38,511 bases of DNA from Fonticula-like sp. SCN 57-25 (lineage: Eukaryota). The stretch lies in the NCBI GenBank assembly GCA_001724245.1, contig MEDX01000033.1, positions 1 to 38,511 on the forward strand, read 5' to 3'. The translations under genes were made by a program, and so were the position numbers. This document shows positions 2,726 through 24,400 of the stretch, in pieces. Within the stretch, counting starts at the first letter, position 1; each line of letters starts with the position of its first letter. The notes beneath the pieces are model-generated. The model had not been told where the DNA came from. It worked only from the letters and a program-made list of their open reading frames with translations, and ran no database searches.

Positions 2726-3048
2726 TCAGCTAAAGTCAATCATAAGAAGATCGTCTTGAGCCGAACCCGACGGTGGCGACTGCGTGTACCCGGACGGCTG
2801 CTGCGAATATTGGGCCTGCCCATCCGCAGAGTAGTTGGCCGGTGCGCCAGGTGACACATAAGGTCCGCCTGAAGGCTGGGCTTGCCCTGGAAGCAAATGC
2901 AAATCGTGTGAGCAACGGCTGACATGCATCGACATGTACGCACATCCTTCATCGTAGCGAGGTCCTCCTTGCCAGTTGCTGCCTGGTTGCTGTTGCAGGG
3001 GCGCGGTCGCGTGGCTGGGCTGAGACGAATTTACCAGAGGATAGATAC

Positions 3049-3080
<32 letters not shown>

Positions 3081-4774
3081 ACAGGCGGTGTCGACACAGG
3101 CCCATAAGATGCAAGAGGCTGTGCGTACGACGAAGTCGGCTGGACAAACGGCGCGGGACGCTGCTGCTGCTGCTGTACAGGTGCGCCATACGTACTCCCT
3201 TGCGAGTACTGACCTCCGGGCGACACCGGAGGATACGCCACGGGTTGCTGCACTTGCTGCTGCGCTGGAGCGGGATGACCGGATCCTGCCGCTGCATACG
3301 TAGTGGGCGCAGGCATGGGCTCTGCGAAGCAGTTAGAAAATACATAGATAATAGAATAGGGAGCATACTTCGAGTCAGAGCCGCTGCAAGCATTTTGTCG
3401 TAGGAGGCGCGGGCTTTAGCAAAGTCGGCATTAATAGCAACAAGCTCGTCGCGCTTCTTTTCGTATTCGCAGATGACCTCGACTAGGCGAGGCTTCAAGG
3501 CAGTGCAAGCGGCGACGAGCTCCTGAATCGTATCGTCGTCGGCAACATTGACTCGAGATGGATCCACGGAGCTCAACAGCTGATGTAGCAGTGAAATTTT
3601 GTCCGTCTGCAGCTGGGCCTCGAGGTCGGCAAGCTGCTCGCCGGCGGGAACTGCAGGCTTCTCCAGTGGTACTGGCTTCACCTCTGCTGATACAGGCGAC
3701 TGAGCAGGCGCCTCCTTCTGCAAAACGAGAAAAATAGGTCAACATCCTTATGAACACTGAGCGCAAGGGCACGAGAGAATGCGAACCACATAGTTTGCCG
3801 GAAACACGCCGACGGCACCATCAAGCCTCCCTTTCCACCAGTCTTGATGATTCTTTTCAATGACATCAATAGTGTCGCCGCGCTTAAACGCAAGCTCGCC
3901 TGCTTCACGGCCAACAAAGTCATACGCGGCCACAACACGGCAGAGCGAAGGGGCCGCCGAGGAAGGGCGCGCCACGGGGGCAGGCTCCGGCGGCTTTGTA
4001 ATCTCCTTTGTCTTCACCGCGGTCGATGCACGGGACGCGGCTGGCCGCGCTCGAGCCTCCGTCTCAGAAAGCGAGATAGCCAAAGCCAGCTGAATTTCCT
4101 CGTCTTCCTTCAGCTTGTCAGCAGCCGACTGCTTGCTCTTGGTCGCCTGGGCGTCGGCGGCCTGAGCAGGGAACGCATATCCCTTTCGACGAAGGGAATC
4201 AACTTCCTGCACAACGGCAGCAACGAGAGGCTCAAAGGTGGTCCACCCAAGAAGGACCGAGGCAATGCGCAAGCGGACGCTCTCGTTCACCCCGGGAAGC
4301 GTAAACATCCGTGACAAAACAAAAAGCAGGCCTGTAGTGGGCTGTACCACCTCTATGTGAAATTTCTCACCGCAGTTCTTGTAGCATGCGTCAATAACCT
4401 ATACGCGACATAGTCAGTACACGCGCCTTCATTATGAGCGCGTAAAAACACGTACATTAACTGCCTGCAGAACGACATTCGGGTTGCGATGCTGAAGACG
4501 GACAGCCAGACTATCCGCGCAAGCCTTGGCGCTGCTAAAGTAGTCAGAAAACTGCCGCGCCGTACAAACAGGTACGCACGTGAAAGGGGAAGTACACACG
4601 GCGTCGGTCAATGCAAATGTAGCTGCCCAATCTACCGAAGTCAAGTTCTCGTTTGTTGCCCTCTCTACACAGCTAGGATTAGATGGCAAAAAGCAAAGAC
4701 CTCCTCATACCAACTAGCTGTTCAGTGACAGTGTCTTTAGGCGGAGCTCCACCGCCTGTCAGTCGGCTAAACAT
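2726..4774 (-). CDS. HSE1: ESCRT-0 subunit STAM/Hse1-like (VHS-UIM-SH3-GAT plus P/Q-rich tail)
   Basis: ATG at 4774 (MFSRLTGG). VHS domain: ERATNENLTSVDW...NPNVVLQA...YKNCGEKFH. UIM: EDEEIQLALAISLSE. SH3: AAYDF...ELAFKRGD...WWKG...GVFPANYV. Then a helical GAT-like region and a Q/P/Y-rich tail. About 6 GT-AG introns. Confidence 0.9.
3050..3079 (-). repeat. (CAG)10 microsatellite encoding poly-Q in the Hse1 tail
   Basis: Ten perfect CTG copies on the + strand at 3050-3079. Confidence 0.95.
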
Positions 4775-4991
4775 GCCGGACGTTTTTGGTTACCTGCCGG
4801 TCGCGCGCTGGAATCCACTCCTGCGCCTGCGCACTCGTACGGAGGACAAACAGCAGCAGTTGACGTAGACAATGACGCAAACTGCAAACCACCCAAAATC
4901 TACCCCGATACCCTTCAAGATTCCTTGTCCAATCAAAGCGCGACTGTGTTTTGACGCCGCTCTGTGGAGTAACAAACAGAGGGAGAGAGCC

Positions 4992-6758
4992 ATGGCAAAA
5001 TCTGCCGTAGGTCGTCTCGCCTTGCTGCTTTTGCTGTGCAATGCTGTGCTCTCTGGCGCTCAAAAGCTTGGCTCGTATAATGTGGATCCTAGCAAGGTGA
5101 CCGTGTCGGGCTTATCAGCCGGCGCGTATATGGCTGTCCAGCTTCACGTCGCCTACTCGTCGACTTTCCATGGCGTCGCATCCATTGCCGGAGGGCCCTA
5201 CTACTGCGCCCAGGGCTCCGTCTCTAATGCACTCACCTCATGTATGAGCTCACCGAGTATGATTCGCCTTCCGAGTTTGCTGGACTATACCAGCGAGAGC
5301 GAGGCTTCAGGAGCGATTGACCCCCTCAGCAATCTTGCCGACGATCCAGTATACGTCTACTCTGGCGTGCACGATAGCACAGTGGAGCGCGGCTGCTCGG
5401 AGCTTCTCATTGAATACTACGAGTCGTTCCTGCCGTCGGAACAGATTCTGGCAGAGTTTTCGGTTGAGTCGGGGCATGCCATGATCACCGATTTTTACGG
5501 CAAAGAATGCGACACGAGTGCGACGCCGTACATCAACAACTGCGGCTACGATCAGGCTGGTGTTCTCCTTCAGCATCTCTACAATTCTTCGTTGGTAGAC
5601 CGCGTATCCTTTGTGAGCGAGAACTTGCTGCGCTTTGATCAGACCGAATTCAATGTTGGCAAGTCGATGGACAATGTAGGCTTCGTCTATGTGCCCTTCT
5701 CCTGTTCGAGCGGGAACGGCTCCCCTTGTGCACTGCACGTCGCGCTGCACGGCTGCCTGCAAAACTGGGACGAATTTTCTGTCGGCGAAAAGTATGTATC
5801 TTACTCGGGCTACAACGAGTGGGCCGAGGCCAATGGTATCATTATTTTGTATCCTCAGGCGCAGCCAAACACCATGCTCGGCAATGCAAACGCCTGCTTT
5901 GACTGGTGGGGCTACGAAGACCCCGACTACGCCGTCAAGTCCGGAGTTCAGATGGCAGGCATCAAGGCCATGGTTGACCGCATCATCGGCGACTGGAACG
6001 GCGGCGTTCCGCCACCGGGGCAAGTCACAGTGACCAATGTCTCTGACGACACGATTTCTCTTTCATGGGACCCAGTGGAGGAGGCAGAGGGCTATAGCGT
6101 GTTGCGCAACGGTGTTAGGGCGAACGTTGCCGAACTTTTCGACCCCTTTTTCACGGATGCCGGGCTGGCTTCTGGCACCCTGTACACCTACACGGTGGTC
6201 AGCATCGCTGTGGGCGGAGGAAGCAGCGTGCCATCCGAGCCCGTGTCGGCGACCACGACCGGCACGCCTCCTCCTCTTGCTCAGGTGCAAGGTCTGGCAG
6301 TGACGCGCGTGACAAGCACGCTTATTGGCATTGAGTGGCTTCCCGTGAGCGGCGCGGCTCAGTACGCGGTTCATCGCGACGGCGTCGCGGTTGCCAATGT
6401 TTCCGTCGTAACATTCGAGGACAGCGGGCTGCTCCCGGATACGGAATACACCTACGTTGTCAATGCTGTTGACTCTCTTGGCGCCGATGGGCCCCCTTCA
6501 TCTGTGCGCAATTTGTTTTTATTTGTTCTATCTAACATGAAAGCGTAGCCTCTGATCGCCGAAACAGGGCCGTCCTTCCAATGCCAAACATGGACAGACG
6601 ACAACTACTCGCACGTTGCGGAAGGCCGCGCCTACCAGGTGGCGGGTCAGGTGTACACTATTGGTGGCGAGGATTACTTGGGCCTGTGGAACGTGTTTGA
6701 CAGGTCTACCGTCTCTGAAACCTCGCAGGGTTTCTATGTCGAGGGGGATTGTGCTTAG
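4992..6758 (+). CDS. phaZ: Secreted poly(3-hydroxybutyrate) depolymerase (PhaZ-like): signal peptide, type-2 catalytic domain, 2x fibronectin III, PHB substrate-binding domain; exons 4992-6503 and 6549-6758 (573 aa)
   Basis: Signal peptide MAKSAVGRLALLLLLCNAVLSG. N-proximal lipase box GLSAG, Asp in GVHDSTV, His in SGHAMIT, oxyanion motif ALHGC, and NACFDWWGY. Two Fn3 repeats (LSWDPV...YTYTV; IEWLPV...YTYVV). A 45-nt intron GTGCGC...CTAAC...TAG at 6504-6548 leads to FQCQTWTDDNYSHVAEGRAY...LGLWNVF...GFYVEGDCA*. Confidence 0.88.
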
Positions 6759-6953: not shown

Positions 6954-9900
6954 CTACCAGCAGGTCATGGCGCGATTCACCTGATCACAAATGCGGGTCA
7001 TCCTCATGCGGCCCGCAGGCGTCTCATCAAGAACTCGCTGCACTCCTTCCTTGATCACACTATCCAAGAGGTGAGCAGCAAGTTTGGCATTATGTAGCGT
7101 GCTTTCGTACCGAGCATTGCCATATTCCACTTCGACCGAGGCGGTGAGACCAACCTCTTCCAAATCACGCAGATCTACACCGAACACTACCTTGAAGCGC
7201 ATTTGCTTGCGGAACGAAAAGAAAGTGACACTGACGTCCTTGGCGGCATCCAACACTGCCGCGGTGTCGTCGGCAGCCGAGGATTCCACCGCCGTTGTAA
7301 AGAAATGTGAAATGCACCGAATGTCACGACCGACTGCATCCTTCACCCCATAGTCGGCCACAGCTTTACGCAAGGAGCGTTCGTATGACGGTAGCGCCTG
7401 CGCCAGCGAATCCATCTCGGCCGAGACGCGCGCATACTCTGCCAGCTCGGCATCGATTACAGAGGCCGTTTGGCTGAGGCTATCGCGCAGAGTTGAAAGC
7501 TTGTCCGCGCGCCAGTCATACCACCGGCTGCGAGCATCAAGCTGCGCAGCATACTTGAGGTGCTTCAGCACCGCTTGGAACTCGACGCGATCTTCGTCAG
7601 TGGCATCATCAAACATGCCCAGCCAATCAGGGTGGCTCGCATCAATCTGTGATTCGAGCTCGCCTGCAGCCGTGCGCTTCAGAGAGCTCTCCTCCTCCAG
7701 TGTCTTGCAGGCCTGCACAGGAACAGATCAGACAAAATAAAGGCAACGGAATAGTCGTACGGATTCAAGAAGGTTAAGCTCGGGCGACACGACAAAGTCG
7801 ATGCGGCCAAATTCAGCCAGGGACTTTACTGGAGGCGCGGGCAAAACAGTGTCGCGGCGACGGCTGTTGGCAATACGATCGTAAAAGACGACGTTAGCGG
7901 CGGTCATAAATGACTGGACAGTTGGATCTGGCACAGCAACCGGAGTGGCAGCAGCAGTCTCAGTCTGGACCGTCGGCTCGGTCTTGGGATCGGAGAGGAC
8001 AAAGCGAGGAACAGCCGTTTCTGCAATAGCGGGGGTCTCGGCCGAATAGTACCGGCTCGACGCAGCTGGCGTGGATGGAGCCGCCAAAATAGTCGCAAAC
8101 GAGAATGACTTGCGCAGTCTGGAAGCAATAGTGCCGGTTGACTCTTTCGCAGGAGTCATGGAGATTGTGCTGGTTTTTTCCACAGCAGAGGCAACAGATT
8201 CCTGCACGTTAACCGGTGCCTGATCCAAAGCCTGCACGCTGTCCACGATGGGCTCCGGCACCTCACTGTCAACCTCCATAGCATCATCATCATGCCAACT
8301 CGGCGCCTCCGGCTCCAAATTCAAAGGCGCAACAGCGGTGAGCTCCATGTCAATAGACTCTTGAAGATGGGTGACGGGTGTTGCAATATTTTCTTCAGAC
8401 TTGAACACATTGACAGCAGTTATCGACGTCAGCTCCATATCGGCTTCTTCTTCCGGCATCGCAGGTGTCGAGTCAGGTTGCGACACAATAGAAATAGGAG
8501 CAACGGCCGTGAATTCCATGTCCGCCTCCTCATGGGCCTCCTCCTTCTCCTGAGGAGCAGCAAGACCCATCAGGGAGCTGATCGCACCAGCAGTGCTCTG
8601 GATCATCTCGGCAAGTGCGCCACCAACGGCCGTAAACTCCATGTCCGCCTCCTCTTCCTCAGTCTCCTTCTCCTCCTCTTTAGGAGCAGCAAGGCCCATA
8701 AGAGAGCTGATCGCGCCGGCAGTGCTCTGGGTCATCTCGGCAAATGCGCCGCCAACGGCCGTAAACTCCATGTCCGCCTCCTCATGGGCCTCCTCCTTCT
8801 CCTGAGGAGCAGCAAGGCCCATCAGGGAGCTGATCGCACCAGCAGTGCTCTCGGTCATCTCGGCAAGTGCGCCGCCAACGGCCGTAAACTCCATGTCCGC
8901 CTCCTCTTCCTCAGTCTCCTTCTCCTCCTCTTTAGGAGCAGCAAGGCCCATAAGAGAGCTGATCGCGCCCGCAGTGCTTTGGGTCATCTCCGCGAATGCG
9001 CCACCAGTGGCAGTAAACTCCATGTCCGCTTCCTCTTCCTCAGCCTCTTTCTCCTCCTCTTGAGGAGCAGCAAGACCCATAAGGGAGCTGATCGCACCCG
9101 CAGTGCTCTGGGTCATCTCCGCGAATGCGCCGCCAGTGGCCGTAAACTCCATATCAGCCTCTTCTTCAGCCTCCTTCTCCTCCTCTTGAGCGGCAAGGCC
9201 CATAAGGGAGCTGATTGCGCCCGCAGTGCTCTGGGTCATCTCGGCAAATGCGCCGCCAGTGGCAGTAAACTCCATGTCTTCCTCCTGTGCTTCATCGTTT
9301 TGGGCCTTGTCGCTCAACCCCAAAAGCGATGCGACAGCCGACGCTGAACCCTGAGTGATATCCTGAGAAGCTACGCTCTCCGCGGCCGTCATTTCAGGCA
9401 GCGAAGAAGATACTGCAGTCATCTCCATATCCTGCTCCTCATCGCTATCGTCCTCCAGAAGAGGTGCCTTGAGATTGAAAGTCATGGACTGCCTTGGCCG
9501 ACGATGTTGAGCAGGCTCCACCGTCTTCTTAATTTCCTCTACAGGGGCCGCCGCCAACTCGGGCTGAATAGGTGCCTCAGCCTGGGCAATAGGCTCAACA
9601 TCGGCGTGAACACCAAACGAGGTAGAGGGGGAGATCTTTCCGGTATCTTCATCTGCCTCGAAAATTAGCATCGAGTTGCGTGGCGCAAAGCTAACACGGC
9701 GAGACGCGCGGTCCGACTTGAACGCAGACTTCAATCTGCAGCACACGTAAAGGTTAGATCGCAGAAAAAGGCAGTAGAGAGTCACATACCCAACAGCCGG
9801 CTAATAGTAGTGTAAGGGGATCAGCGGAAAGGACGTAAGTTAGGATCCATTGACTGCGACAGGATCAACACGTACCGTAGAGGAGTTGGGACCCGTGAGC

Positions 9901-12459: not shown

Positions 12460-15400
12460 TTACACCACCGCAGCCATAGCCATCGCATAGGCACCGCTGT
12501 GGCTAATGCTTAGCTTGACGTCGGCGACACCAAGCGATCCAACCACCTGCGCGGCTTTTCCGTGGAAGACAATAGTGGGCGCGCCGGACGCGGCCATGAC
12601 GACCTCAATGTCTCTTAGCGGAGCCCCCGCGCCGTCCCACAGGCTGCCTCGATCGGGGTACTTGTTCGAGATAGCCTTAAGGGTCGCCTCTTTGGCGCAC
12701 CAGCGCCCTGCAAATGACGCACGCGGATCGGGCTGAGCGAGGCAGTATGCGACCTCGGCATCGGTGAAATTGCGACTGAGATAGTGTTAGCGAAACGAAC
12801 GGCGAATTGCTGGGCAGCAGCATACCTGACAAAGGTGTCATTGTCCACGTTGACGGCGGACAAAAGCTCAATATCCACTCCGATACCCTTTGCCACGCCA
12901 TCCGCCAAATTGCTCGAAGGTAGCGCGGACGCGGAGCGCGTCAGCGCCAGGTGTTCATCTTCAAAGCTGAACTGGTCTGAAATGCCCGGTGAATCCGGCT
13001 TGAGGCTTTTGAAGAGGTGCTGCGCGCTGGGTGCTTTTAGCAGCAGGCCCTTTGGCGCCCCAGAGTTGCCACTAGATACCACTCCGCTTCCGTCGGTGCT
13101 GCTCGCGCTTCTCGCGCGAACAGCTTCACTAGCTGCGCGCTTGGTGCCGCCGGCAGACGAAGAGCTTGCCTTAGCAGCATGCGGCTTGATCGTCCACTTT
13201 TGCGTTGTAGGATCACGCGTCGCGCGGGCGAGCGGGTCCAGGTAGACGCTTTCCACATCCTTTTTGTCGTACGGCGCTTCATCCTTGATCCGAACGATGG
13301 GCGCGGTCTGAGTAATCCCGTCATGCAGGTGCCTAAAGGCGTCCCTATTCCTCTGACCTCTCTTGTCGCAGTACGCAAGGTACTGGTCTTCGCTGAGGCA
13401 CGCGAGGGCGTAGTCGGGATGAATTACAAGCACCTGGCCTCCCACCTGGCCAAAGCCAAACGATGTCAGCATGGCGGCCTTGATGCCGTCCGTCTTTATA
13501 GCCCGGGAGGGGAAGCAGATGAACTCGTAGTCGCGCAGGCGCTCGTCAATGTTGTCCGCGTTGCGATTCCCGGGAATAATGCCGCTGCCCAGCACCTGCA
13601 GAACGCCGTTAAGCATCCACGCCGCTGCTGCGCCCTTGGGGTGGCCCGTCAGGTACTTTTGCGTTATGGCAGGCATTGTGTTCCCGCGAGACCGGCCCAG
13701 ATGCGACAGTTGCGCGTCGAGCACCGCCGTTTCATTGATGTCGTTGGCCTGCGTGGACGTGCCGTGAAGCGATGCAACGCCAATATCATCAATGGTAAGG
13801 TTGAACACATTGAGCGCTCCGCGAAGAGGGGAAATTCGCGCGTCTTGGCGGTAAAAGTCTGTTCCCCAAAGACGACGGGAGGTCGCCAGCTCAAGGGCTG
13901 CTTGATGCTCAATGTCTCTCAAGCGAGCACGCGCAAACTCGTTCTTCTCATCATCTAGGCGTCACATTAGAACTACAAAGTAATCTGACTCGGCATGCGC
14001 CGTACCACTCGCTTCCATCATGTTGGCGATCTGGCGCTCAAGATGTCTCTTTTCTGCATCAACCCAATCGTCAATCCGCTGGATCTGTAGCTTGACTTGC
14101 CTCGCGCGGTATTCCACACTCATGAGAAGCTCAGCTGCGTGAGCACCGCCGGGACCGTCACCAAAGGTGCTCGACGAGAGCCCTAGCGATGGCGCCCTGA
14201 CAAACGGCAGAGGTGCGCCGCCTGCCACGCGAGCAGCCGGCGATGCCAGCGAGTCGCTGTCCGCCTTGCTCTCGCGCGCAACAGTTAGGATGCCGCGGCC
14301 CGGAGCGGGAACAGATCGTCCGCTCTTATCGGTCGCCGTGGCCGTCATCGCGAGGATGCCGTAGATTGGCACGCCCATTTCGATTGCGAGACTGGCAGGC
14401 ATGAGCACCTGCATGCCCGCTCCCTGCGCCTCCATGAAGCCGTCGCGCGTTGTGGTTGCAGGTCGAGACATCTCGCGAGGCTCGCGGCCGCGCTCAAGCT
14501 CAGCGCGCGCGTTGCTCGTCGCGCGCATTTGAGCAAACTCGTACGAGCCTTCCTCTTGAAAGTCGTCGTAGCCGCCAACCACCACAATCCGCGCCTTGCC
14601 GCTCAAAATGGTGTCGATGCCAATCTCGACGGAAAGAACAGACGTGGCGCATGCGCCAACAGGGGGCTTGATAGGGCCCGAGCTGCTCAACAGCAGCATG
14701 TTGACCCACGCAGGCATCGTATTGATAAAGTTCTCCTGCAGAATGTCCGACTGGACAGGGCGATCCAAGAAACGCTCACGGTATATGCGCGTGTTTGCCC
14801 GCATGCCACCAACGCCTCCGCCCGAGCAGTTTCCAACCTAGATTACTCTATCAGCACTAGAAACGCACCGGGTGCTCCGTACCTCCGAAACGTGCACGTA
14901 TTTGTAAAATTCGTAGGGGTCGCTTATGCCGGCGGTCATGAGCGCCTCGGCCGTGGCGACGAGCACATAGAGGGTTACGGGATCGACCTGGTTTACAATG
15001 TCATCTGGGATGCCATAGCGTTTGGCGTCCCAGCCGGTAGGAATCTGACCCGCTACAAGGCGATCAAACCGCAGCGCCTTGGGGACATAGAGCGTGGCGC
15101 CCTTGCGGAAGCGAACCGTCCACGTGGCATCTGATAGATTGGCGTGAGCCGAAATCAATCGCCAAAAATTGCGAGCAAAAGAGGGACGCACCGGCATTCG
15201 CAGCCGACGTGGGATAAATATCCACCTGGTCGCCGTGGAAATGCTTAAAGTGCTTGGCTTCGTCGTGCGAGACTTCGAGCGGAGGTAGATCGGCGTCGAG
15301 AACCACCTGCTGGAGGAACTGCTTGCGGTCGGGGTCATATCCATCAAACAGCGCCGGCTCTGCAGCACGTTTAGGACCAGGTGCAACGCAAATAAACGCT

Positions 15401-18400
15401 GAATCCACGTACCAATGAGGCGAATGCCAGAGTGCTTGAGGATCTTCTCTTCGTACTTGGCCTTTACCTCCATGTCCTGAATGGGCATTTCGGTTTGCGA
15501 ATCCACCCAGCCGGCATAGTGGGCGCCCCGTTGGCTCTTGAGGGGGCCATTGTTATGACGAATGAAGCCCATCAGCCACGCCATCTCAATGCATCCCTAC
15601 ACAACACCGCATATAAGCTTGACTAAAGAGCAAAAGAGACGCACCTCAAGACTGAACTGTCCATGCGCTTCCATCTCCCATCGAGTGCGCGAGTTTCCCC
15701 ACGGGCCGACCTCGCCGTATCCAGTGACAACAATGACGCGGTCGAGGTCCACCAAGTCGCGATACACGCCCAGGGATTCGAGCGCACTGTACGGCTTGAG
15801 TTCGGGGAAGGGCATCTGAATATTGGCGCGCGCTGTGACTACGGCAGGCGAGGCGGACGATCCGCTAAGAGCAGACTGATCCTGCTGCGTTTCGCTGTAC
15901 ATTTGCGTAGCGTTAGAAAAAATCACAGATTGCTCAACATGAGCGCACCGAGCGATCGCGCTACGAATCATGGCCGTTTCCTTGATCTCGTCTCTGATAT
16001 TCTTCATTACCTGGTTCAGGTCTTGGACGCGCTCAAGCCCACCGTTGAGGTCGGCCCACACTGGCCCGAGCTCGGCTGCCATCCTGACGACAGAGGTGTG
16101 CAGTAGTCCAATCAGGTTGAAAGCCATATCATGGGAGCTAAACGTGCGAACGTGGCCGCCCGCACCGCTGTTCTCGAGGCCCTCGGCCACAATGTTGTTG
16201 GGCGCCATGAGGCCGGTGCCGCGAGTCCAACCAATTACAGCACCGACGATGGACACGTACGCACTCCACGACTCTGAATGCCACTTGTACAGAAGGGTCT
16301 CAAGGCCAATCTTGGACTCACTGTAGAGCCCATCTCCGCCAAACAGGCCATGGTTGGGGGAAAGTGGAAGCAGCAGTAAAGCCGGACGCGTATCAATGGA
16401 CAGGCGGCGCTTGTGCGACGTAATCGCACCAACCAAACGCAGCACGTTTGTCTACGCAGCGGTGTAAGCGGGCATTTCAAATTCAGCAGGCTCAACGCAC
16501 AAGCATCATCCGATGCGCGACTTCGCTCTTGTCATCGATTTCAGTCATTTCGCGCCCGTTTTCACCGATGGCGGCAAATGGTACGATAAAATCAATATCC
16601 CACCCAAGGCCGTCCGCAGATGTCGAGTAGATATAGTCGGCGAGCGCTTGTACATCAGCCGTGCTGGCCTGGTTAAATGGGACAACTACCAAGCTTGAGC
16701 TGCGCGCGCCGTGCCGTTCATACATGGCTCGGTAATAGTCCGTCGTTGACGCGCTGAAAGATGATGTCGTCGCAATCACGCGAGCACCGCCGGCGAGGAA
16801 CGAACGAAGGAGGTCGGCTCCAATCGATCCGCGGCCGCTTCCGGTAAGAAGCACAGTCTTGTTGGCAAATGAGATGCCATCGCGGGCGATCTGCTCGAGC
16901 GCCTCAAAGTAAACCTTACATATAATTAGTATGTATAGCATGGACTCGGGCAGCAAAAGCGGCGTACATTGGTTTTTGTTTGATCAAACGTCCAGCCGCT
17001 CTCCTCTGCGTGCGACTTTAGGTGCAAAAAGGGAACCGCCTTTTGCTTGCGAGTGGTGTCAACAGCATGCGAGACGGTTTCCAGCAACTTGGTCATCCGG
17101 ACCGCAGTGCGCGAGCCGTCCTTTTGCATGCGAATGAGCCGCCGCAGCCTCTTTGCAGCTCGCATTGCTTCCTTGGCGTTGCCGCCGTTGCTCCTGCCGG
17201 CAGCCCCAGCAGCAAAAACACCCTTGCGCATCTCCTTGACGTAAGTAGATAGATTTCGAACGTCCTTCCTTTCGACTTCCCGATAAATGATCTGGCCATC
17301 GCTGGTTATCTCGGTCTGAGGCGCGCGCGGGATTCCAAGGTCCTTGAAGCGCGGCACAGTCTCCACGGCCTCCTTCAAGCTCAAGGCAAGCATTGTGCCG
17401 AGGCTGTTGGCGCGCTCATAGAGCGCGGCCGTTTCCTCAAAGCCGGGCTTTTGCTTCAGTTCAGCAGCGACCGCGCCGCAGTGACGCATGTAATAGTCAA
17501 AAGTCTCGACGAGCGCCGGGTGAGCGCGTCCCATCAGATCAATACTGCGCTGCATCACAGCGCGATCGACAACCGCCATATGGCCATGAACAAGCGCGTA
17601 GTAGAGCTGAAGCGCCTCTTGAGTGCTCCAGTTCCACCAAGAGTCGTACCGGCGCGCCTTTCGCGTGTCAAACTGACCCGCAATGCCCGCCGCGTATGTG
17701 TCGCCGTGCTCGCTACGCCAACCGTCAAGCTCCGCCATCTGGGCTTGCGAGAGGCTTGAGAGAGCCTGCGAGCGGCGCTCGCCCTCAAGAAGGTCAAGGC
17801 CAATATGTGAAGCAAACATCTCGAGCTGCGCGCGAAGCAAATGATCCTGGCGCGCCTGCAGGCGGGCAAGAATACTGGCATCTAGCGCGGGCGACAATTG
17901 CATTGGCTGTGAAGCACCGCCGCCGCCGCCTGCTCCTCCAAGAGGCACCTTGTTCTCTGCCGCGTACCCGGCCACCACACCATCAAGCCAGGCGTGCGCC
18001 TCCTGCTCGTTGCCAAGGCGCGCCGGAGGCTCCATGGTAAGCGCATGCAGCAGGCAGGCGTCCTGGCGACCAGGCCCCAAGCCCCATCGCGTTGAAAGAT
18101 GTCCGCGAAGAGACGGCACTGTCATGCCGGCGGGCATCTTTGCGCTGGTGAGGCGAGCCAGCATGGCCAGCGAATGGGCGCCAAGCTTTGCGTAGGCTGC
18201 CCCGGACGCAGATGCGAGCTCTGTTAGAGGCGCCTCAGACAGAGTGTCGCTCGTCGCGCCGCCCGTATCGCCAAACTCCTTTTGAATGTCGCCAAGAAGC
18301 TCGTTCGTTAGAGTCGACTTGCCGGCAGACAGCGTCTTGAGAGACGTCGAAGGCGCAATCTCAGCGTACGGTTTCTTTAGCTATGCACATCGTTAGGTTT

Positions 18401-21400
18401 GGCAATTTATAAAGAGCAAAAGGCAAACCTTTGCAGCGATGAGCGCTCGAACAAACTGAATTGCCGTCACCGGTTCGTCGGCCACCGGCCCAACAGCGTT
18501 TGCAGACGGTGCGGGAGCAACAGCGACAGGCGCGCCCTGAGGCATACCGCCTTGTGGAGCAGCCGCGCCAAGAGTTATACCTGCGTACGCTGCGTACGAC
18601 TGGGCAACGGCATCAAGCCACGACTTTACGTCGCCCTCCGAGCCAAAGCGGCTCGCTGGCTCACGAGTGAGCGCATGAAGGAGAAGTCCGTCGGTACGCT
18701 GTGGCCCCAGCCCATAGGCAGACGCAATGAGCGACTTTAGCTGCGTCGGCCCCATGCCCGCAGGCATTTTGGCACCGATAAGCTTGGCAACGAGTGACGA
18801 CGTGTGCGCACCAAGCGCCCCTTGCGTGCGCCATCCGCCCCTGGAAGCAACGGCTTCTGCGAGGTCGCTGAGCGGTAGCTCGTCAGCCTTTTCAATGGAC
18901 GAAACATCGCCAAACTCCTTTTGAAGATCGCCCACGAGCTCGTTCGTGAGCGCGCTCTTTCCTGCCGACACGTCCTTTAGCGTCTGCGTCATGGGTAGAC
19001 TCGCAAGCGGCTTCCGCGTCTTGTACGCAACAATCACATGAACGAGTTCGCGCGCAGTCAGCGGCGCATCCGATACGGCGGACGGTGCTGCCGGCGGAGG
19101 CGGCGGAGGCAGAGCAGCAGTTGGGGACATGGCGGCAATTGTTTGGGGAGCGCCGCTCGGAGCAGGAGCAGCTGCCGCCTTGGCCTTTCCAGCAGCTGGA
19201 GCGGTCGGCGCCGCGGTTGATACCACTTGCGGAACTATTACAAGCTGAGTTTGCAGAAAAAAAAAAAATATCTGCGTACCGGGGTCCGCTTCCTCGTAGT
19301 AAATGCGAGCTTTGTGCGAAGTGTATGCCAGATTCTCGCGTCTAAACGTGACTGCGTCGTCGTATGCCTCATACTTGAACTTTAGCGTCCTTTGCGCCAT
19401 GTTGACAAGCGTCGGGCCCGGGCCGATTTCGATGAGGCGCTCGATGGCAAAGTTTTTGAAAAGCTGGTCCTGGGTCTCGATCCATCGCACGGGCGAAGCA
19501 AACTGGTAAGCAAGCAGTTCCACGAGCAGGGTGTAGCCAAGCTGCTGCTGCTGCTCGGCTGCAAACATGTTGGCCTGAGTTGCTCCAGGTGTCAATGGCG
19601 ACAGAGGAACGCTTAGCTCGTCTGTAGATTCGCTCATCGAGCGGTCGGCGTCCCAATGCCTCAGAATGCGCGCCAGTTTTGGCGATCCCGTAATCTCCCA
19701 CACGCGTTGAACGTAGCTCCGGTCCAAGCTGAAAGGCTCGGCAATCACGTTGGGAATGTACTTGCCAACCAGCAAGGTGACATCAACGTTACGAGGCTCG
19801 ATGCGCTTCAAGAGATACGCGCGGAACGGCGCGACGCCGGAGCGCAGGAAGCGCGAGTGAAAAGGAACATCAATGCCGGTCAAAGGAATCGTTGCCTCGC
19901 CGCGAGTCAGCACAACGTCGCGCGAAACGGCCTCGAGTGCGGCGGCCGCAAGCTGCTCATCTTCGGCGTTCAAGTTGTCGTACGCGCCAGCTTTGCCGCG
20001 CGACTTGGCGCTGCTAATCGTCTCCTCAATAATGGTGCTGCGCTGAGTCGAAACAATGTCGCGAAGCTGCGCCTCGACCTGCTGGCGCGTCATGGATTTA
20101 ATCAGATGCTCAACGTTGATTTTTTTGGCGCGAATAAAGTTGAGGACGCGCGTCAACGTCTCGAGGTTAAGGAGCGTTCCGGCGACAACATACTGCCAGT
20201 GCTCAACATTGTAATTGACGATTTCAAGGAGCGTCTGCGACGACATTTCAATGATGCAATCAATAACAAATTGGAGCGGAATCTAAAATCGCAAGATTAG
20301 TTGGTGCCACAGAAATCCAATTTCAATGCGCGCCTGTCCAAACCCTTGTCCAACGCGCGAAGGGTTGACGGCGGTCATGCCGTACTCGGACCGGCCCTTG
20401 TCGTCACGTCTGACCGCACTCTGCATTGTCATGCCGCGGTAGAACACAACGTCCACCAAACTCTCAATCGGCAGCACATTGCCGATTGAGGCGAGCGCGG
20501 CATACTCACCAAGCGAGTGCCCGGCAAACGGGCGGTTCTGCTGAAGGAGACCGCGGTGCTTCATATCCTCAAACTGCGACTTTTGCAAAAGGGTAAGGGC
20601 CGGTTGAGTAAACTGAGTTGCATTCAGCAGGCCACCGGGCGACCTGCGCGCCGCAAGTTTAGCGTCAAAATAAAATTGTGCGCGGAACGCACTTGAAGGT
20701 ATAACAGTCCGAGTCCGCCGTGATTGTCGGAAACAGCGGAAGCGTGATGAGCGATCCGTCCGGCTGCACAAGCTCATATGTCATTGCCATGTAGGAGCGC
20801 CTGATGCGATCGCCGCGCGGGCCGCCAAAGTGAACCGTGACTTGCGTGGGATTGTTGCGCACAATGTGCAAAATGGAAAACCCATAATTCTGCTTGAAAT
20901 GGGCGTCGGCGAGGTCCCAAATACGACGAGCAACATCAGACGACGCATATAGGTCCATGCCCATATTCTAAAATACCGTGAGCCAACGCTATTGTATCAA
21001 TAAAAATATATCTGTACCTTTTCCTGGCTTCCCTGCCCCGTGAAAATGTACGCAGTGACCGCCTGGTCCACCTCAGCAGTAGCGTCGAGCACCTTGACGC
21101 CGTCCGCATTAAATGTCTCCACCTTTATGATCTTTTTGCCGGCGCGCATCCCCACATGGTACATCTATTTCCCTGCTGTTAGGCTCGGCGGTAGCACGCC
21201 TTTTCACACGCACCTTGGTTTGCAGCGTATCGCCTGGCTGAACCATGGCGACGAACGACGCGCGGAAAAACGAGACCCGCTTGGGGTCGTTATCCGCGGC
21301 AAACACCTCCACAAGCCTGCGCGTAGCAGCAGACGTCCACATGCCATGCGTGATCGTGGAAGGCTGCAAGCCAATTAGCCACACATAAGAGCGGCCCAAA

Positions 21401-24400
21401 AAAACGCACCAAGTCGGCCAGGTCGGCAAAGTAGGGGTTTGTGTGGATGGGATTCAGATCGCGCGACGCTTTGGCATAGACGGCATTGTTGGCAGGCGCG
21501 GCAAATTGAGTCGAGAATGCCGCGGACTCGGGCAAAATATTGGCGCCGCCGTCGGGGAAGTTGATGTCGCGGTCCATCGGCGTTCCGGCGCGTGAAAGGT
21601 ACGCCGTCACAGGGTTGCTCACACACTAGCACGTGTAAGCAACAACGCACGCATCTGCATCTCGCGCACCTCTCCCGTGACAAAGGAAACGCTGCCCACA
21701 ATGATGGTTTCTTTGGCGGCCGTTTCGGTCGAAATCGTTCCCGTCGTTTCGATAGAGGCAAAGCGCTTTGCATCCTTGAACAGCTCAACCGACGTGCACT
21801 TGAAGTCCAGCTTGGCGCCGGCTACCACAAGAGCGTGGGCGTCAACTGCGTCGCGCCAGGCCACCCACGGCTTACTCTTGAGCACAGCGACGTCGGCGGC
21901 CGAGCGGAGATGAAGTCGGTACGGCACCTCCTCGACGCGGCGGAACGTGTGATGATAGGCGTCTGGCGGGTCGCTCGCCGTACGCCGATAGTAAAACGAG
22001 CTGATCACATGCATCATCGCTTGCTCGCGGGATTCAGATTCATCATCCGATGTCGAGCCGGGCGCCCCTTCGGCAGAAGGGAAGGAGCCGCGCCGGTAGA
22101 TAACCGCTTTCACCGTAACTGTCTTGCCCTGAGCATCGTTAATAATCGCTTGGATATGGGCGCGCGTCAGCAGGCAGTCGCCTTCGCTTATTAGCGGGTC
22201 GCTCGGGTCCAGCACGCGGAACTCGTTGGACAGGTGAACCAAGTGCAACAGATCGCCGTTGATTTCGCGCGGGAAGAGGCCGCCAATCACAGCCTTCCAA
22301 CTGGCAACGATCGCATAATCCATCGGCGCCTTAAGGCGCTTGTTGTCGCTTTCTACATACAGCTCGGCCTGATTGCCGACCGACCGACAGAACGCCGTGA
22401 TCGCCTCGCGTGTTACAACATGCTCGGCAACAAACTCTGAAATTTTTTTTTAGAGAATGAGCAAATGAGTGCCTTTGTGCTGTCCATGTGGCGCACCTTT
22501 ATCCATCGGCGTAATCGCTTGATCATTGCTCGCGTCGGCTGCAAAGCGGAGCTCCTGCTCGCCAAACCATAGTCTAAAGTAGAATGCCTTGATGCGTTCA
22601 TTCTTCCCGTCTGTAATTTCGTGGAGCGGCGAAGCGCCCTTCAGAGGCCGGAACGCAAAAAGGAGCGGCAGCGGCAGCGCGCGCTCCGACGCCTCCTCTC
22701 GCGCCACGTACACATTCACAGTGATCACGTCGTCTGTTCCGAGGAAAGCCTCCACGACAGGCGAAGCCGCATCGCTGCCGTCGTAGGTTTGCCCGCCCAA
22801 GGCGTGCGCGTCGTAGATGCGGATGCTCGTCGCGACGCTCTGCGAGCTTTTGCTGGACGCGGGCAGCATGCTCGAGGAGACGACAACGCGCTGGCCCGGC
22901 CGAGGACGGAAAAGCAGCAGGAGCGGCGACCGTACCAAATGGTTGCCGCGCACGACAAACGGCGAGTTCAACAGCGCGTGCAGCCACGTGCTGAAAACAA
23001 CACCATTAGCATACATGTGCTGCACACGTGTGCCCAGCAAACGCACTGTGGTTGTTTGCCCCCTAGAAAGCAGAGCCACGCCGCCGCGTCCGGCAGTTCC
23101 TTTGCCTGCTCGGTGACATCGTATGTCCGCGCAAAGGCGCTAGTGAGCGCGGTGTTGAGCACGACGCCCGGGATTGCGCCTTCCTGGTCGGGGAGCGCCA
23201 GCGGCAGCGCGGTCGCGCCCGTGTACCCGCCCTGGTTTGTCACCAGCGGAACGCGCTCCCTGTCTCCGCCATAGTATCGCTCAAGAAGAGCTGCCACGTG
23301 ATTATCGTAGATTGAATCAAGGATCTCCTTGGCGGACTGCGTGGCCGTCGTAGAGTACCTGGCCGCCACGGGGCCCTGCAGGATGCACACGCGCTGGGCG
23401 TCGCCGTCGATTACCGCATCGAGGTCCTCGCTCTGCCAAAGGGAATCTTTTTTGAACCACGTGGAAAACTCCTCGTTCAAAACCGGGATGAAGGGGACGG
23501 GCTTTTGGCCCCGACGCGAGCACAGATGCAAAAAGTGAAGCACGTCTGAAAAAAAGATACGGACAAAATAAGCACACGGCCTCTTAATATAAAAGGAGCG
23601 CACCCTGCGTATTGAGCGTCTGGGTCTTGCCGTCGGGGAAGCTCTCAAAGAAGAGCGAAACGAGGTTGTCAGGCTCATCTTTTAGACAAGAAGCAATGTC
23701 CTCCCTCTCGAGCACACTTACCTTCTTTCCATTCTCCTTTTCGCCGACAAAGCGCTCCTCGACGCGTGTCAGGTAATCGGTTAGCAGCTTTTTAAAGCTA
23801 GCGTCAATCCAACGCTTCTGATGCGCGACAAAGCAGAGCTTCACCAGCCGGCGCGCGACCTCAAAGTACGTCATATCGCTCAGCTCACACGGCGTCCCCT
23901 CGGAGCCCTTTTCGCAGAACCAAACCTTCTGAAAGTCGGCATTGAGGCGGCGGATCAGGTACGCGCGGTGCTCGCGCAGAAATGCGAGCTGCTGGGGGCG
24001 CGGCAGATTGAACAGTGTGTCATCCAGCTGTGATTAAAAATAAGAAACAATGCAAGCATCATATTAAACTAATGGGCGCACCTCCTTCCACAGCATCACA
24101 CCGCGGGTCGCAATCTTGTGGATGGGCTCACCCAGCTCGGACTTTACGGTAACAACGCCGCCGACGGGTCGGTCGTACGACTGCTCCCACAGCGCCTGGT
24201 CAGACGCACCAGGGGCAGCCACAATGAGCGCCTTGGCCCCGGGGGACGTGCGCGCCTCCCTCGCAACCATCATGCGCGAGCCAATCAGGATGGCGTCAAA
24301 GGGCATTGCAGCGTAGCCAAAGTCGCGCGACCAGTCGCCAACAAGGAACGGAAGCGACTCGGCGCCGTCGCCAAACCCACTCCCTGCAGCAAAAAAGGAG

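What the first reader, a model, noticed from the sequence alone, without database searches (positions are those of the whole stretch)
4992..6758. Eukaryotic PHB depolymerase with the complete bacterial multidomain architecture, including a PHB-binding domain hidden behind an intron
Seen: signal peptide, type-2 catalytic domain (lipase box GLSAG near the N-terminus, HGC oxyanion motif later), two Fn3 domains, then a 45-nt spliceosomal intron. The final exon, not in the ORF track, encodes FQCQTWTDDNYSHVAEGRAYQVAGQVYTIGGEDYLGLWNVFDRSTVSETSQGFYVEGDCA. Known: this matches the pattern of the C-terminal type-1 substrate-binding domain of betaproteobacterial extracellular PHB depolymerases (F.C......NY.HV..GRA...G..Y..G....GL.N.F...L....GYY..G.C), whereas the characterised fungal enzyme from Penicillium funiculosum is a single catalytic domain. 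Inference: a horizontally acquired, domesticated polyester hydrolase that lets this eukaryote digest PHB granules of bacterial prey or environmental PHB; it is also a candidate bioplastic-degrading enzyme.
Basis: partly seen in the sequence, partly recalled or inferred. Interest (0 to 1): 0.85.

Follow-up and report, generated by a model that had tools for sequence, protein, structure and literature searches.

The report
Eukaryotic multidomain PHB depolymerase gene
A eukaryote's own gene encodes a secreted enzyme that should bind and digest the bacterial storage plastic PHB, built like the bacterial enzymes with a polymer-gripping tail behind a tiny intron, but it is an old resident gene with eukaryotic relatives, not a recent bacterial import.

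Summary
Window 4992-6503 plus 6549-6758, joined across a 45-nt GT-AG intron, gives a 573-aa protein. It has a signal-peptide-like start and a type-2 short-chain PHA/PHB depolymerase catalytic domain (NCBIfam NF050059, E 4e-110; triad S42/D128/H162). Two Fn3 domains and a 63-aa C-terminal substrate-binding domain (SBD) follow, the SBD lying in exon 2. The exon aligns end to end with the SBDs of homologues (E 6e-24 to 2e-15). The intron carries the donor (GTGCGY) and branch motif seen in the introns of the neighbouring fatty-acid synthase gene. No RNA data could be obtained.

Composition and codon use match the neighbours. The catalytic domain falls outside the clan holding all 16 named bacteria (SH-aLRT 100). 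It groups with animal, choanoflagellate and protist enzymes and with at least four other eukaryotic loci of the same architecture. A Burkholderiales-clade origin is rejected (p-AU 8e-13). So this is not a lineage-specific recent transfer. Eukaryotic PHB depolymerases were already described in 2026, but no Fn3 or C-terminal domain appears in that paper's main text. I found no printed report of the Fn3+SBD form in eukaryotes. Activity is untested.

The parts
4992..6503 (+). Exon 1 (504 codons): signal-peptide-like N-terminus, catalytic domain, two Fn3 domains
   Evidence: Translation; collinear alignment with homologues.
4992..5060 (+). Probable signal peptide (residues 1-23: basic K3/R8, Leu-rich core, S-G-A before Q24)
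   Evidence: Read from the sequence. The mature chain of PDB 2d80 starts aligning at residue 26. The AF2 model has low confidence and a lone helix at residues 1-20. No signal-peptide predictor was available.
5067..5990 (+). Type-2 extracellular scl-PHA depolymerase catalytic domain (residues ~26-333); Ser42 in GLSAG, Asp128, His162, HGC 253-255
   Evidence: NF050059 E 4.2e-110. PDB 2d80 E 1.9e-53. Foldseek 2d81 E 2.4e-29, TM 0.86 on the target, rmsd 2.6 A. Motif positions; invariant columns.
6012..6251 (+). Fn3 domain 1 (residues 341-420)
   Evidence: Pfam PF00041 best stretch 341-420; beta strands 346-421 in the model; tandem FnIII structures match.
6279..6482 (+). Fn3 domain 2 (residues ~430-497)
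   Evidence: Second Pfam fn3 stretch; PDB sequence matches at 430-497; strands 436-493.
6504..6548 (+). 45-nt spliceosomal intron, in frame: GTGCGC donor, CTAAC branch-like motif, TAG acceptor that is also the stop of the unspliced ORF
   Evidence: Sequence. The same GTGCGY donor occurs in 9 of 12 intron-sized gaps of the neighbouring FAS gene. The composite pattern has 25 matches against 6.0 +/- 2.5 expected, reached by 0 of 100 shuffles. Removing the intron restores collinearity with homologues.
6549..6758 (+). Exon 2 (69 codons plus stop)
   Evidence: Translation.
6567..6755 (+). C-terminal substrate-binding domain (spliced residues 511-573), Cys516...Cys572
   Evidence: HMM built from homologue C-termini gives E 5.1e-28. 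BLASTP E 6e-24 to 2e-15. Conserved C12, N19, H22, G26, R27, A28, G39, G45, L46, N48, C68 in exon-2 numbering. AF2 model has pLDDT 90.9.

Best explanation
This is a resident two-exon nuclear gene of a eukaryote whose lineage I could not resolve. It encodes a secreted, modular poly(3-hydroxybutyrate) / short-chain PHA depolymerase. A signal peptide sends the protein into the secretory pathway. An alpha/beta-hydrolase domain of the 'type 2' kind cleaves the polyester, with lipase-box Ser42, Asp128, His162 and the oxyanion-hole HGC at 253-255. Two Fn3 modules act as a spacer. A 63-residue, probably disulfide-closed beta-rich domain encoded by the last exon anchors the enzyme on the hydrophobic surface of PHB, as the C-terminal SBDs of bacterial enzymes do. 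The products would be 3-hydroxybutyrate monomers and oligomers that the cell can take up. Shown here: the gene model, domain homologies, conserved catalytic and SBD residues, the fold of the catalytic domain, host-type intron signals, host-like composition, and the phylogenetic position outside the main bacterial clan among eukaryote-associated enzymes. Inferred: secretion, splicing in vivo, PHB binding and hydrolysis, and the ecological use (free PHB and necromass, or ingested bacteria).
For: Family and catalysis: NF050059 scores 367.9 bits against a cut-off of 280. P. funiculosum PHB depolymerase 2d80 matches at E 1.9e-53 over residues 26-333, with the Ser, Asp, His and HGC columns matching. 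D128, H162 and H253-G254-C255 are invariant, and S42 nearly invariant, across 13 relatives. The AF2 model (pLDDT 84.6) matches 2d81 at E 2.4e-29, target TM 0.86.

SBD. In 213 of the 241 sequences (240 related proteins and the window's own) the same domain ends within 16 residues of the C-terminus.

Intron.

Eukaryotic residency: neighbours. Gene GC is 0.569 and GC3 0.666, against neighbour GC3 of 0.59-0.66; codon-fraction r = 0.88 against FAS.

Relatives: careful IQ-TREE puts the window with Monosiga and 10 unnamed rows (97/97), and with 8 further rows of its own clade, most of them multidomain, at 99/92. Related loci carry eukaryotic marks: L004 has 3 in-frame introns, L012 and L005 have an intron after residue ~72, and L001 sits beside a SYO1-like gene. 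Owenia, Diphylleia and Namystynia enzymes are 47-49% identical.
Against: No transcript evidence for splicing or expression could be obtained, and no enzymatic assay exists. The publicly predicted protein of this locus (P0003, 518 aa) reads through the intron and lacks the SBD. No signal-peptide predictor was run. Pfam and NCBIfam have no SBD model, so the SBD call rests on homology to the C-termini of annotated PHB depolymerases. Most rows on the 'eukaryotic' side of the trees are unnamed. Three of 96 named bacterial rows (two Pseudobdellovibrionaceae MAG contigs and one small MAG contig) also fall on that side. Inner branches there are weak (76-91). The trees are unrooted, so 'clade' and direction of transfer are not established. 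The Fn3-SBD tail tree places some rows of the bacterial side (P0067, P0035, P0043, P0104) next to the window's group, a mild conflict with the catalytic-domain tree.
Confidence: 0.8

Rival explanations
1. Recent, lineage-specific horizontal transfer of a complete betaproteobacterial PHB depolymerase gene into this eukaryote, later 'domesticated' by intron gain.
For: The architecture is identical to bacterial enzymes. The best named full-length hits are Oxalobacteraceae and other Burkholderiales at 43-47% identity. The SBD is 40-45% identical to theirs. The SBD-boundary intron is absent from the three other loci that cover this region (L001, L004, L005), so it is a late gain.
Against: Closer relatives (48-62%) come from eukaryotic loci or from transcript-sized contigs. 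All 16 named bacterial rows form a clan that excludes the window's clade (SH-aLRT 100). The window clade held with 13 Burkholderiales-clade rows is rejected (p-AU 7.9e-13); that group was fixed after the tree had been seen. Composition is fully host-like.
Confidence: 0.06
2. The intron is not removed, or only sometimes: the main product is the 518-aa SBD-less protein, and exon 2 is a decaying remnant or an alternative isoform.
For: The intron is in frame and ends in a stop codon, so retention gives a complete catalytic + Fn3 protein. No RNA evidence either way.
Against: Exon 2 is open for 69 codons. It keeps every invariant SBD position, including both cysteines, and folds confidently (pLDDT 90.9). 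The intron has the host's donor, branch and acceptor signals and a typical host length of 40-64 nt. A remnant would not stay this conserved at 54% identity to a relative whose whole protein is 50% identical.
Confidence: 0.1
3. Assembly artefact or bacterial contamination: a bacterial gene mis-joined to eukaryotic DNA.
For: None beyond the bacterial-looking architecture.
Against: The gene lies 640 bp and 196 bp from intron-bearing eukaryotic genes on either side. It shares their GC3 and codon use, carries a host-type intron, and has no bacterial relative above 47% identity among the 80 best genome loci listed of 591 relatives found.
Confidence: 0.01
4. The enzyme has drifted to another substrate, such as other polyesters or a non-PHA ester, and is no longer a PHB depolymerase.
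For: Activity is untested. Identity to any characterised enzyme is only 36% (2d81). Related Pfam and TIGR families include feruloyl and other esterases, matched weakly.
Against: It scores well above the curated cut-off of the specific type-2 PHA depolymerase model. It keeps a dedicated PHB-depolymerase-type SBD. Animal enzymes from the eukaryotic PHAD family described in that paper, which includes Owenia, were shown to degrade PHB (PMC13642032: abstract and passages read).
Confidence: 0.1

Closest known systems
Bacterial extracellular short-chain PHA (PHB) depolymerases with a type-2 catalytic domain, Fn3 linker and C-terminal SBD. [quoted passage not shown] HS. The nearest named hits here are Pseudoduganella, Noviherbaspirillum, Variovorax and a Rhodoferax MAG.
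   Same: Same order of modules (signal, type-2 catalytic, Fn3, SBD), same catalytic motifs, and the SBD at the extreme C-terminus. Identity is 43-47% over the protein and 40-45% in the SBD.
   Different: It is encoded in a eukaryotic nucleus with a spliceosomal intron at the linker/SBD boundary. Its catalytic domain falls outside the clan of all named main-group bacteria.
Penicillium funiculosum PHB depolymerase (PDB 2d80/2d81), the only solved type-2 enzyme
   Same: Same fold and catalytic residues: E 1.9e-53 by sequence, TM 0.86 and rmsd 2.6 A by model.
   Different: The fungal chain is 318 aa and covers only residues 26-333. It has no Fn3 and no C-terminal SBD. Identity is 36%.
Eukaryotic (animal and protist) PHA depolymerases of Zeidler et al. 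2026, Nat Ecol Evol (PMC13642032; outline, section 10 and passages read). Examples here: Owenia fusiformis P0395, Monosiga brevicollis P0207, Diphylleia rotans P0400, Namystynia karyoxenos P0386.
   Same: Type-2 catalytic domain at 47-49% identity; same side of the tree; signal peptide.
   Different: The one animal enzyme whose length the paper gives (O. algarvensis) is 333 aa and single-domain, and all are compared with the single-domain fungal enzyme. The paper's main text has 0 occurrences of fibronectin, linker, multidomain or C-terminal. The window's protein adds two Fn3 modules and an SBD. The paper's supplements on protists could not be seen.
Unnamed eukaryotic homologues with the same architecture: P0005 (locus L001), L004, P0010/P0006 group (L012, L005), P0004, P0137, and P0012 (fragment, the closest at 62%)
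   Same: Same four-module architecture where complete; 45-62% identity; eukaryotic gene structure or neighbours.
   Different: Their introns lie elsewhere; none sits at the Fn3/SBD boundary in L001, L004 or L005. GC ranges from 0.52 to 0.73, so they come from different organisms.

Membership tests
Extracellular type-2 catalytic-domain scl-PHA depolymerase (NCBIfam NF050059) | Score above the curated cut-off of the family model over its full length | tested here: met
   367.9 bits against a cut-off of 280, profile positions 2-305 of 305.
Extracellular type-2 catalytic-domain scl-PHA depolymerase (NCBIfam NF050059) | Lipase box G-x-S-x-G lies N-terminal to the oxyanion-hole motif (the type-2 order, as defined in PMC2666664 and PMC11893044; passages read) | tested here: met
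   GLSAG at 40-44, HGC at 253-255.
Extracellular type-2 catalytic-domain scl-PHA depolymerase (NCBIfam NF050059) | Ser-Asp-His triad conserved and aligned with the solved enzyme | tested here: met
   S42, D128 and H162 align with identical residues of 2d80. D128 and H162 are invariant and S42 nearly invariant in 13 relatives. That these columns are the fungal triad is recalled from the 2d80 literature; it agrees with the Fig. 2 legend of PMC13642032.
Extracellular type-2 catalytic-domain scl-PHA depolymerase (NCBIfam NF050059) | Alpha/beta-hydrolase fold of the PHB depolymerase type | tested here: met
   AF2 model against 2d81: E 2.4e-29, TM 0.86 (target), rmsd 2.6 A over 327 columns.
Extracellular type-2 catalytic-domain scl-PHA depolymerase (NCBIfam NF050059) | N-terminal signal peptide (extracellular enzyme) | tested here: inconclusive
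   A basic-hydrophobic-SGA pattern was read by eye. Homology to the mature 2d80 chain starts at residue 26. No predictor was run.
Extracellular type-2 catalytic-domain scl-PHA depolymerase (NCBIfam NF050059) | Hydrolysis of PHB | not testable with these tools
   Needs expression and a turbidity, clear-zone or 3HB-release assay.
Fn3 linker of PHB depolymerases | Fibronectin type III domain(s) between the catalytic domain and the SBD | tested here: met
   Pfam PF00041 with two stretches, E 1.2e-13; tandem FnIII structures match the model at E ~1e-11.
C-terminal substrate-binding domain of extracellular PHB depolymerases | Sequence homology to the C-terminal ~60 residues of PHB depolymerases, at the extreme C-terminus | tested here: met
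   BLASTP E 6e-24, 3e-20 and 2e-15. HMM E 5.1e-28, ending at the last residue. 213 of 241 sequences carry the domain within 16 aa of the end.
C-terminal substrate-binding domain of extracellular PHB depolymerases | Conserved core positions (two flanking Cys, N-Y-x-H-V, G-R-A, G-L-x-N) | tested here: met
   C12, N19, A28, G39 and G45 are invariant. H22, G26, R27, L46, N48, G66 and C68 are at least 90% conserved in 30 sequences, and the window has them.
C-terminal substrate-binding domain of extracellular PHB depolymerases | Assignment to SBD type 1 rather than type 2 | not tested
No reference model or typed reference sequence was available. Pfam and NCBIfam give no hit.
C-terminal substrate-binding domain of extracellular PHB depolymerases | Adsorption to PHB | not testable with these tools
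   Needs a binding assay with and without exon 2.
Eukaryotic PHA depolymerase family (Zeidler et al. 2026) | Catalytic domain groups with animal and protist enzymes, apart from the main bacterial type-2 group | tested here: met
   The window is on the same side as Monosiga, Owenia, Diphylleia and Namystynia. The named-bacteria clan has SH-aLRT 100, the FastTree split is 97, and the careful tree with Monosiga gives 97/97. Caveats: unrooted trees, many unnamed rows, and 3 of 96 named bacterial rows on the same side.
Eukaryotic PHA depolymerase family (Zeidler et al. 2026) | Single-domain enzyme of about 330 aa | tested here: not met
   The protein is 573 aa with two Fn3 domains and an SBD.
Spliceosomal intron | GT-AG borders with the host's own donor and branch consensus and length | tested here: met
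   GTGCGC...CTAAC...TAG, 45 nt. Gaps in the FAS gene are 30-84 nt (most 42-64), and 9 of 12 have a GTGCGY donor. The pattern is enriched, 25 against 6.0 expected.
Spliceosomal intron | Spliced junction seen in RNA | not testable with these tools
   No usable RNA data set was on offer for this stretch; see Tried and rejected.

The most novel reading that the evidence does not exclude
The four-module form (catalytic, Fn3, Fn3, SBD) is the ancestral state of the whole eukaryote-associated PHA depolymerase lineage, including the animal enzymes. On this reading one old bacterial-type modular gene entered early eukaryotes and was stripped to the bare catalytic domain many times. This genome and a handful of uncultured eukaryotes are living holdovers. 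A smaller side idea: because the 45-nt intron is in frame and ends in a stop, intron retention could switch between an SBD-bearing, surface-anchored enzyme and a free SBD-less one.
Probability: 0.25. Interest if true: 0.55.

Novelty: new member of a known kind. Interest (0 to 1): 0.4.

Why it matters
PHB and related polyesters are a large microbial carbon store and a commercial bioplastic. Until 2026 only bacteria and fungi were credited with degrading them, and the eukaryotic enzymes now known are compared with a bare catalytic domain. A eukaryotic clade that keeps the polymer-anchoring SBD and Fn3 spacers suggests that some eukaryotes attack solid, crystalline PHB, not only granules freed in a food vacuole. 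It provides material for asking whether the animal and protist enzymes descend from a modular ancestor. It also adds eukaryote-expressible modular enzymes to the candidates for bioplastic degradation. Finally, it is a practical warning: prokaryote-style ORF calling on eukaryotic contigs truncated this protein and hid its binding domain.

Tried and rejected
**RNA evidence.** No RNA holder was listed. The three runs laid were contigs. Two 'RNA?' runs flagged 'probably DNA' covered only 5373-5695. One run of unknown kind had a 151-nt contig running from exon 1 into the intron (6372-6522), so it looks like DNA. Nothing bridges or tests the junction.

**Whole genome.** None is held for this window.

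**Family models for exon 2.** Pfam and NCBIfam returned 0 families.

**Fold of the SBD.** Foldseek against PDB gave a best E of 1.0. VIA-align against 48,161 chains gave a best Z of 2.6. No solved look-alike was found, which does not show a new fold.

**Host lineage.**
- A FAS fragment searched against longer proteins gave only 38-50% identity, to chytrids, Microbotryomycetes, Kickxellales and Diplonema.
- The Atlas gave 'commonest Zoopagomycota' for FAS and Streptophyta/Haptophyta for TM9SF.
- The lineage is unresolved, so I do not say whether the organism is a phagotroph or an osmotroph.

**Alternative acceptor.** The CAG at 6567 gives a 64-nt intron, a frame shift and a product with no homology, so it was rejected.

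**Upstream ATG at 4872.** It would add 40 residues before the signal peptide, which homologues lack, so it was rejected.

**Exhaustive phmmer search.** The top of the list is crowded by giant Fn3-repeat proteins. It was used only for the rows that carry a catalytic domain.

**Earlier notes of this scan.** Nothing was found.

**EukProt transcripts.** Those from Lapot gusevi and the one labelled 'Hpha' have the same architecture but fall on the bacterial side with an NCBI bacterial protein. I did not count them as eukaryotic evidence, since contamination or a separate transfer cannot be told apart.

**PMC9020665.** It was read for 'PHB depolymerase' plus 'fibronectin' but holds only InterPro labels of unrelated Fusarium genes.

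**Not run.** An AU test of 'window clade plus all bacterial-side rows against all eukaryote-side rows' was not run.
Full report

Yes.
- The + strand ORF from the ATG at 4992 runs to a TAG at 6546-6548.
- Its first 504 codons (4992-6503) match NCBIfam NF050059, 'extracellular catalytic domain type 2 short-chain-length PHA depolymerase'. The score is 367.9 bits against a cut-off of 280, E 4.2e-110, over residues 27-331.
- Pfam finds fn3 twice, E 1.2e-13.
- The only solved type-2 enzyme, Penicillium funiculosum PHB depolymerase (2d80), aligns to residues 26-333 at E 1.9e-53.
- GLSAG sits at 40-44 and HGC at 253-255.
- The stretch 6504-6548 is 45 nt and reads GTGCGC...CTAAC...TAG.
- The joined product is 573 aa.

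**2. Is the last exon a substrate-binding domain?**

Pfam and NCBIfam have no model that hits it, but the homology evidence is strong.
- It aligns collinearly, from its first residue, with the C-terminal 68 residues of full-length homologues. Identity is 54% (E 6e-24) to P0005, 46% (E 3e-20) to P0043 and 40% (E 2e-15) to a Pseudoduganella enzyme.
- An HMM of these C-termini finds the domain in 213 of the 241 sequences (240 proteins gathered, plus the window's own), always ending within 16 residues of the C-terminus.
- In a 30-sequence alignment the two flanking cysteines, N19, A28, G39 and G45 are invariant. H22, G26, R27, L46, N48 and others are at least 90% conserved, and the window keeps them.
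- AlphaFold2 folds the exon with pLDDT 90.9 into a small beta-rich domain.
- No solved structure resembles it, so the fold adds nothing to function.
- Whether it is 'SBD type 1' was not testable.

**3. Is the intron credible?**

No RNA could be brought to bear (see Tried and rejected). The support is comparative.
- (a) Removing exactly 6504-6548 restores collinearity with homologues at the Fn3/SBD junction.
- (b) The neighbouring fused fatty-acid synthase gene on the minus strand is broken into homology blocks (tblastn with four FAS proteins), with 12 intron-sized gaps examined (30-84 nt). Nine of the 12 begin GTGCGY and one begins GTACGT. Most end YAG, preceded by a CTNAY-like motif.
- (c) The composite pattern GTGCGY..CTNAY..YAG occurs 25 times in the window against 6.0 +/- 2.5 in shuffles, reached by 0 of 100 shuffles. 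Many of these sites lie in the FAS gaps, and the target site is one of the 25. The bare hexamer is not enriched, 85 against 82 expected.
- (d) The next acceptor, CAG at 6567, would shift the frame into sequence with no homology.

The public gene call for this locus (P0003, 518 aa) reads through the intron and so lacks the SBD.

**4. Is it the eukaryote's own gene?**

The flanking genes are ordinary eukaryotic ones, several interrupted by the same short introns:
- an RRM protein;
- a STAM/Hse1-like protein with GAT and SH3 domains (3031-4350, minus strand);
- KNL1/Spc7 with a MELT repeat array (6954-9785, minus strand);
- inositol monophosphatase;
- a fused fungal-type FAS with two ACP domains;
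- an exosome RNase PH subunit;
- TM9SF/EMP70.

The gene's GC (0.569) and GC3 (0.666) sit within the neighbours' range (GC3 0.59-0.66). Its synonymous codon fractions correlate with those of FAS at r = 0.88. Contamination or a recent, unameliorated import is therefore very unlikely. The host lineage stayed unresolved.

**5. Relatives and origin**

*Closest full-length hits.* In the word-indexed search these are unnamed proteins of 565-574 aa at 48-50% identity (P0004, P0005, P0006), plus a 340-aa fragment at about 61% (P0012). Named Burkholderiales enzymes follow at 43-45%.

*Eukaryotic marks on the unnamed relatives.*
- P0005 lies on a GC-rich metagenome contig beside a SYO1-like gene (L001).
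- L004 encodes the full architecture interrupted by three short in-frame introns.
- L012 and L005 share an intron after residue ~72, about 900 nt long in L012.
- P0004 and P0006 come from transcript-sized contigs.

*Catalytic-domain trees.*
- A careful IQ-TREE of 51 rows that I picked from 241 groups the window with these proteins, a tandem two-catalytic-domain protein (P0007) and Monosiga brevicollis XP_001745466. Support is 97/97, and 99/92 for the 9 rows of the window's own clade, most of them multidomain.
- The exhaustive profile-free search (16,365 hits at E<=1e-3) added many single-domain proteins of about 330-350 aa at 42-49% identity.
- Of the ten I looked up, three carry organism names: Owenia fusiformis (annelid), Diphylleia rotans and Namystynia karyoxenos.
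- In a 69-row IQ-TREE of my choosing, all 16 named bacterial rows plus 16 unnamed ones are one side of a branch (SH-aLRT 100). All five named eukaryotic rows and the window's clade are on the other side.
- After adding 80 named bacterial genome loci (identity to the window 36-47%), a FastTree keeps a 40 | 109 split at 97. Ninety-three of 96 named bacterial rows are opposite the window. The three exceptions are two Pseudobdellovibrionaceae MAG contigs and one small MAG contig.
- Forcing the window's clade together with 13 Burkholderiales-clade rows costs 175 log-likelihood units (p-AU 7.9e-13).

*Limits.* The trees are unrooted. Inner branches on the eukaryotic side are weak (76-91). Most rows there are unnamed.

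*The tail.* The Fn3-Fn3-SBD tails of the window's clade also cluster together, with P0377. This fits inheritance of the whole modular gene as a unit. Four rows of the bacterial side sit next to them, a mild conflict that I leave unexplained.

**6. What is known**

- The modular plan is textbook for bacterial enzymes: signal peptide, type 1 or 2 catalytic domain, a Fn3, Thr-rich or cadherin-like linker, and SBD1 or SBD2 (PMC2666664 and PMC11893044; passages read).
- Zeidler et al. 2026 (PMC13642032; outline, section 10 and passages read) showed type-2 PHA depolymerases in 66+ animal species and 18-19 protist species. They demonstrated PHB degradation by several animal enzymes and argued for descent from protist ancestors.
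- Their comparisons are all with the single-domain fungal enzyme. Their main text contains no occurrence of fibronectin, linker, multidomain, C-terminal or tandem.
- Six full-text searches found no paper describing a eukaryotic PHB depolymerase with Fn3 linkers and a C-terminal SBD.

**7. Verdict**

The sequence observation is confirmed in full. The enzyme most likely works like the bacterial modular PHB depolymerases: it is secreted, anchored on the polymer by the SBD, and cleaves by the Ser42/Asp128/His162 triad.

The evolutionary claim needs correcting. This is a long-resident gene belonging to a eukaryote-associated branch of the family, and that branch includes other eukaryotes with the same architecture. 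It is not a recent betaproteobacterial acquisition.

Novelty is taxonomic and architectural within a family whose presence in eukaryotes is now published, so interest is moderate.

Noticed in passing
window ~12500-27100, minus strand: One very long fused fungal-type fatty-acid synthase gene (AT, two tandem ACP domains, FAS_I_H, KS and others), cut by many 40-64-nt introns with an unusual GTGCGY donor consensus. The best named relatives are only 38-50% identical (chytrids, Microbotryomycetes, Kickxellales, Diplonema), so the host lineage is poorly represented in databases.
   Followed up: partly
window 8501-9286 (within the KNL1/Spc7-like gene 6954-9785, minus strand): Tandem array of about 6.2 copies of a 129-nt unit (85% matches) encoding repeated acidic 'DMEFTA'-type MELT motifs (Pfam MELT_2, Spc7).
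   Followed up: partly
P0007 (696 aa, unnamed) and P0520 (Diphylleia rotans isoform, 728 aa): Relatives on the eukaryotic side that carry two complete PHA-depolymerase catalytic domains in tandem and no SBD. This is another unreported architecture.
   Followed up: no
L156 and L158 (Pseudobdellovibrionaceae MAG contigs of 5.4 and 10.4 kb); L148: These named bacterial loci fall on the eukaryote-associated side of the catalytic-domain tree. Either predatory bacteria share this branch, as Zeidler et al. hint, or the short contigs are mis-binned.
   Followed up: no
P0043 (EukProt, Lapot gusevi) and P0134 (EukProt label 'Hpha'): Full-architecture PHB depolymerases from protist transcriptomes that group with an NCBI bacterial protein (P0138) on the bacterial side. 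They may be bacterial contamination of the transcriptomes or a separate transfer.
   Followed up: partly
P0003 (the public protein prediction for window 4992-6548): The deposited gene call reads through the in-frame intron to its TAG and ends 518 aa long without the SBD. This is an example of prokaryote-style ORF calling truncating a eukaryotic protein.
   Followed up: yes
window 5517-5551 and 5733-5763 (run X3, a 2524-nt contig at depth ~109): A much deeper contig in the same run matches only two short conserved pieces of the catalytic domain at 90-95%. It is probably a different PHA depolymerase gene from another organism, or a paralogue.
   Followed up: no
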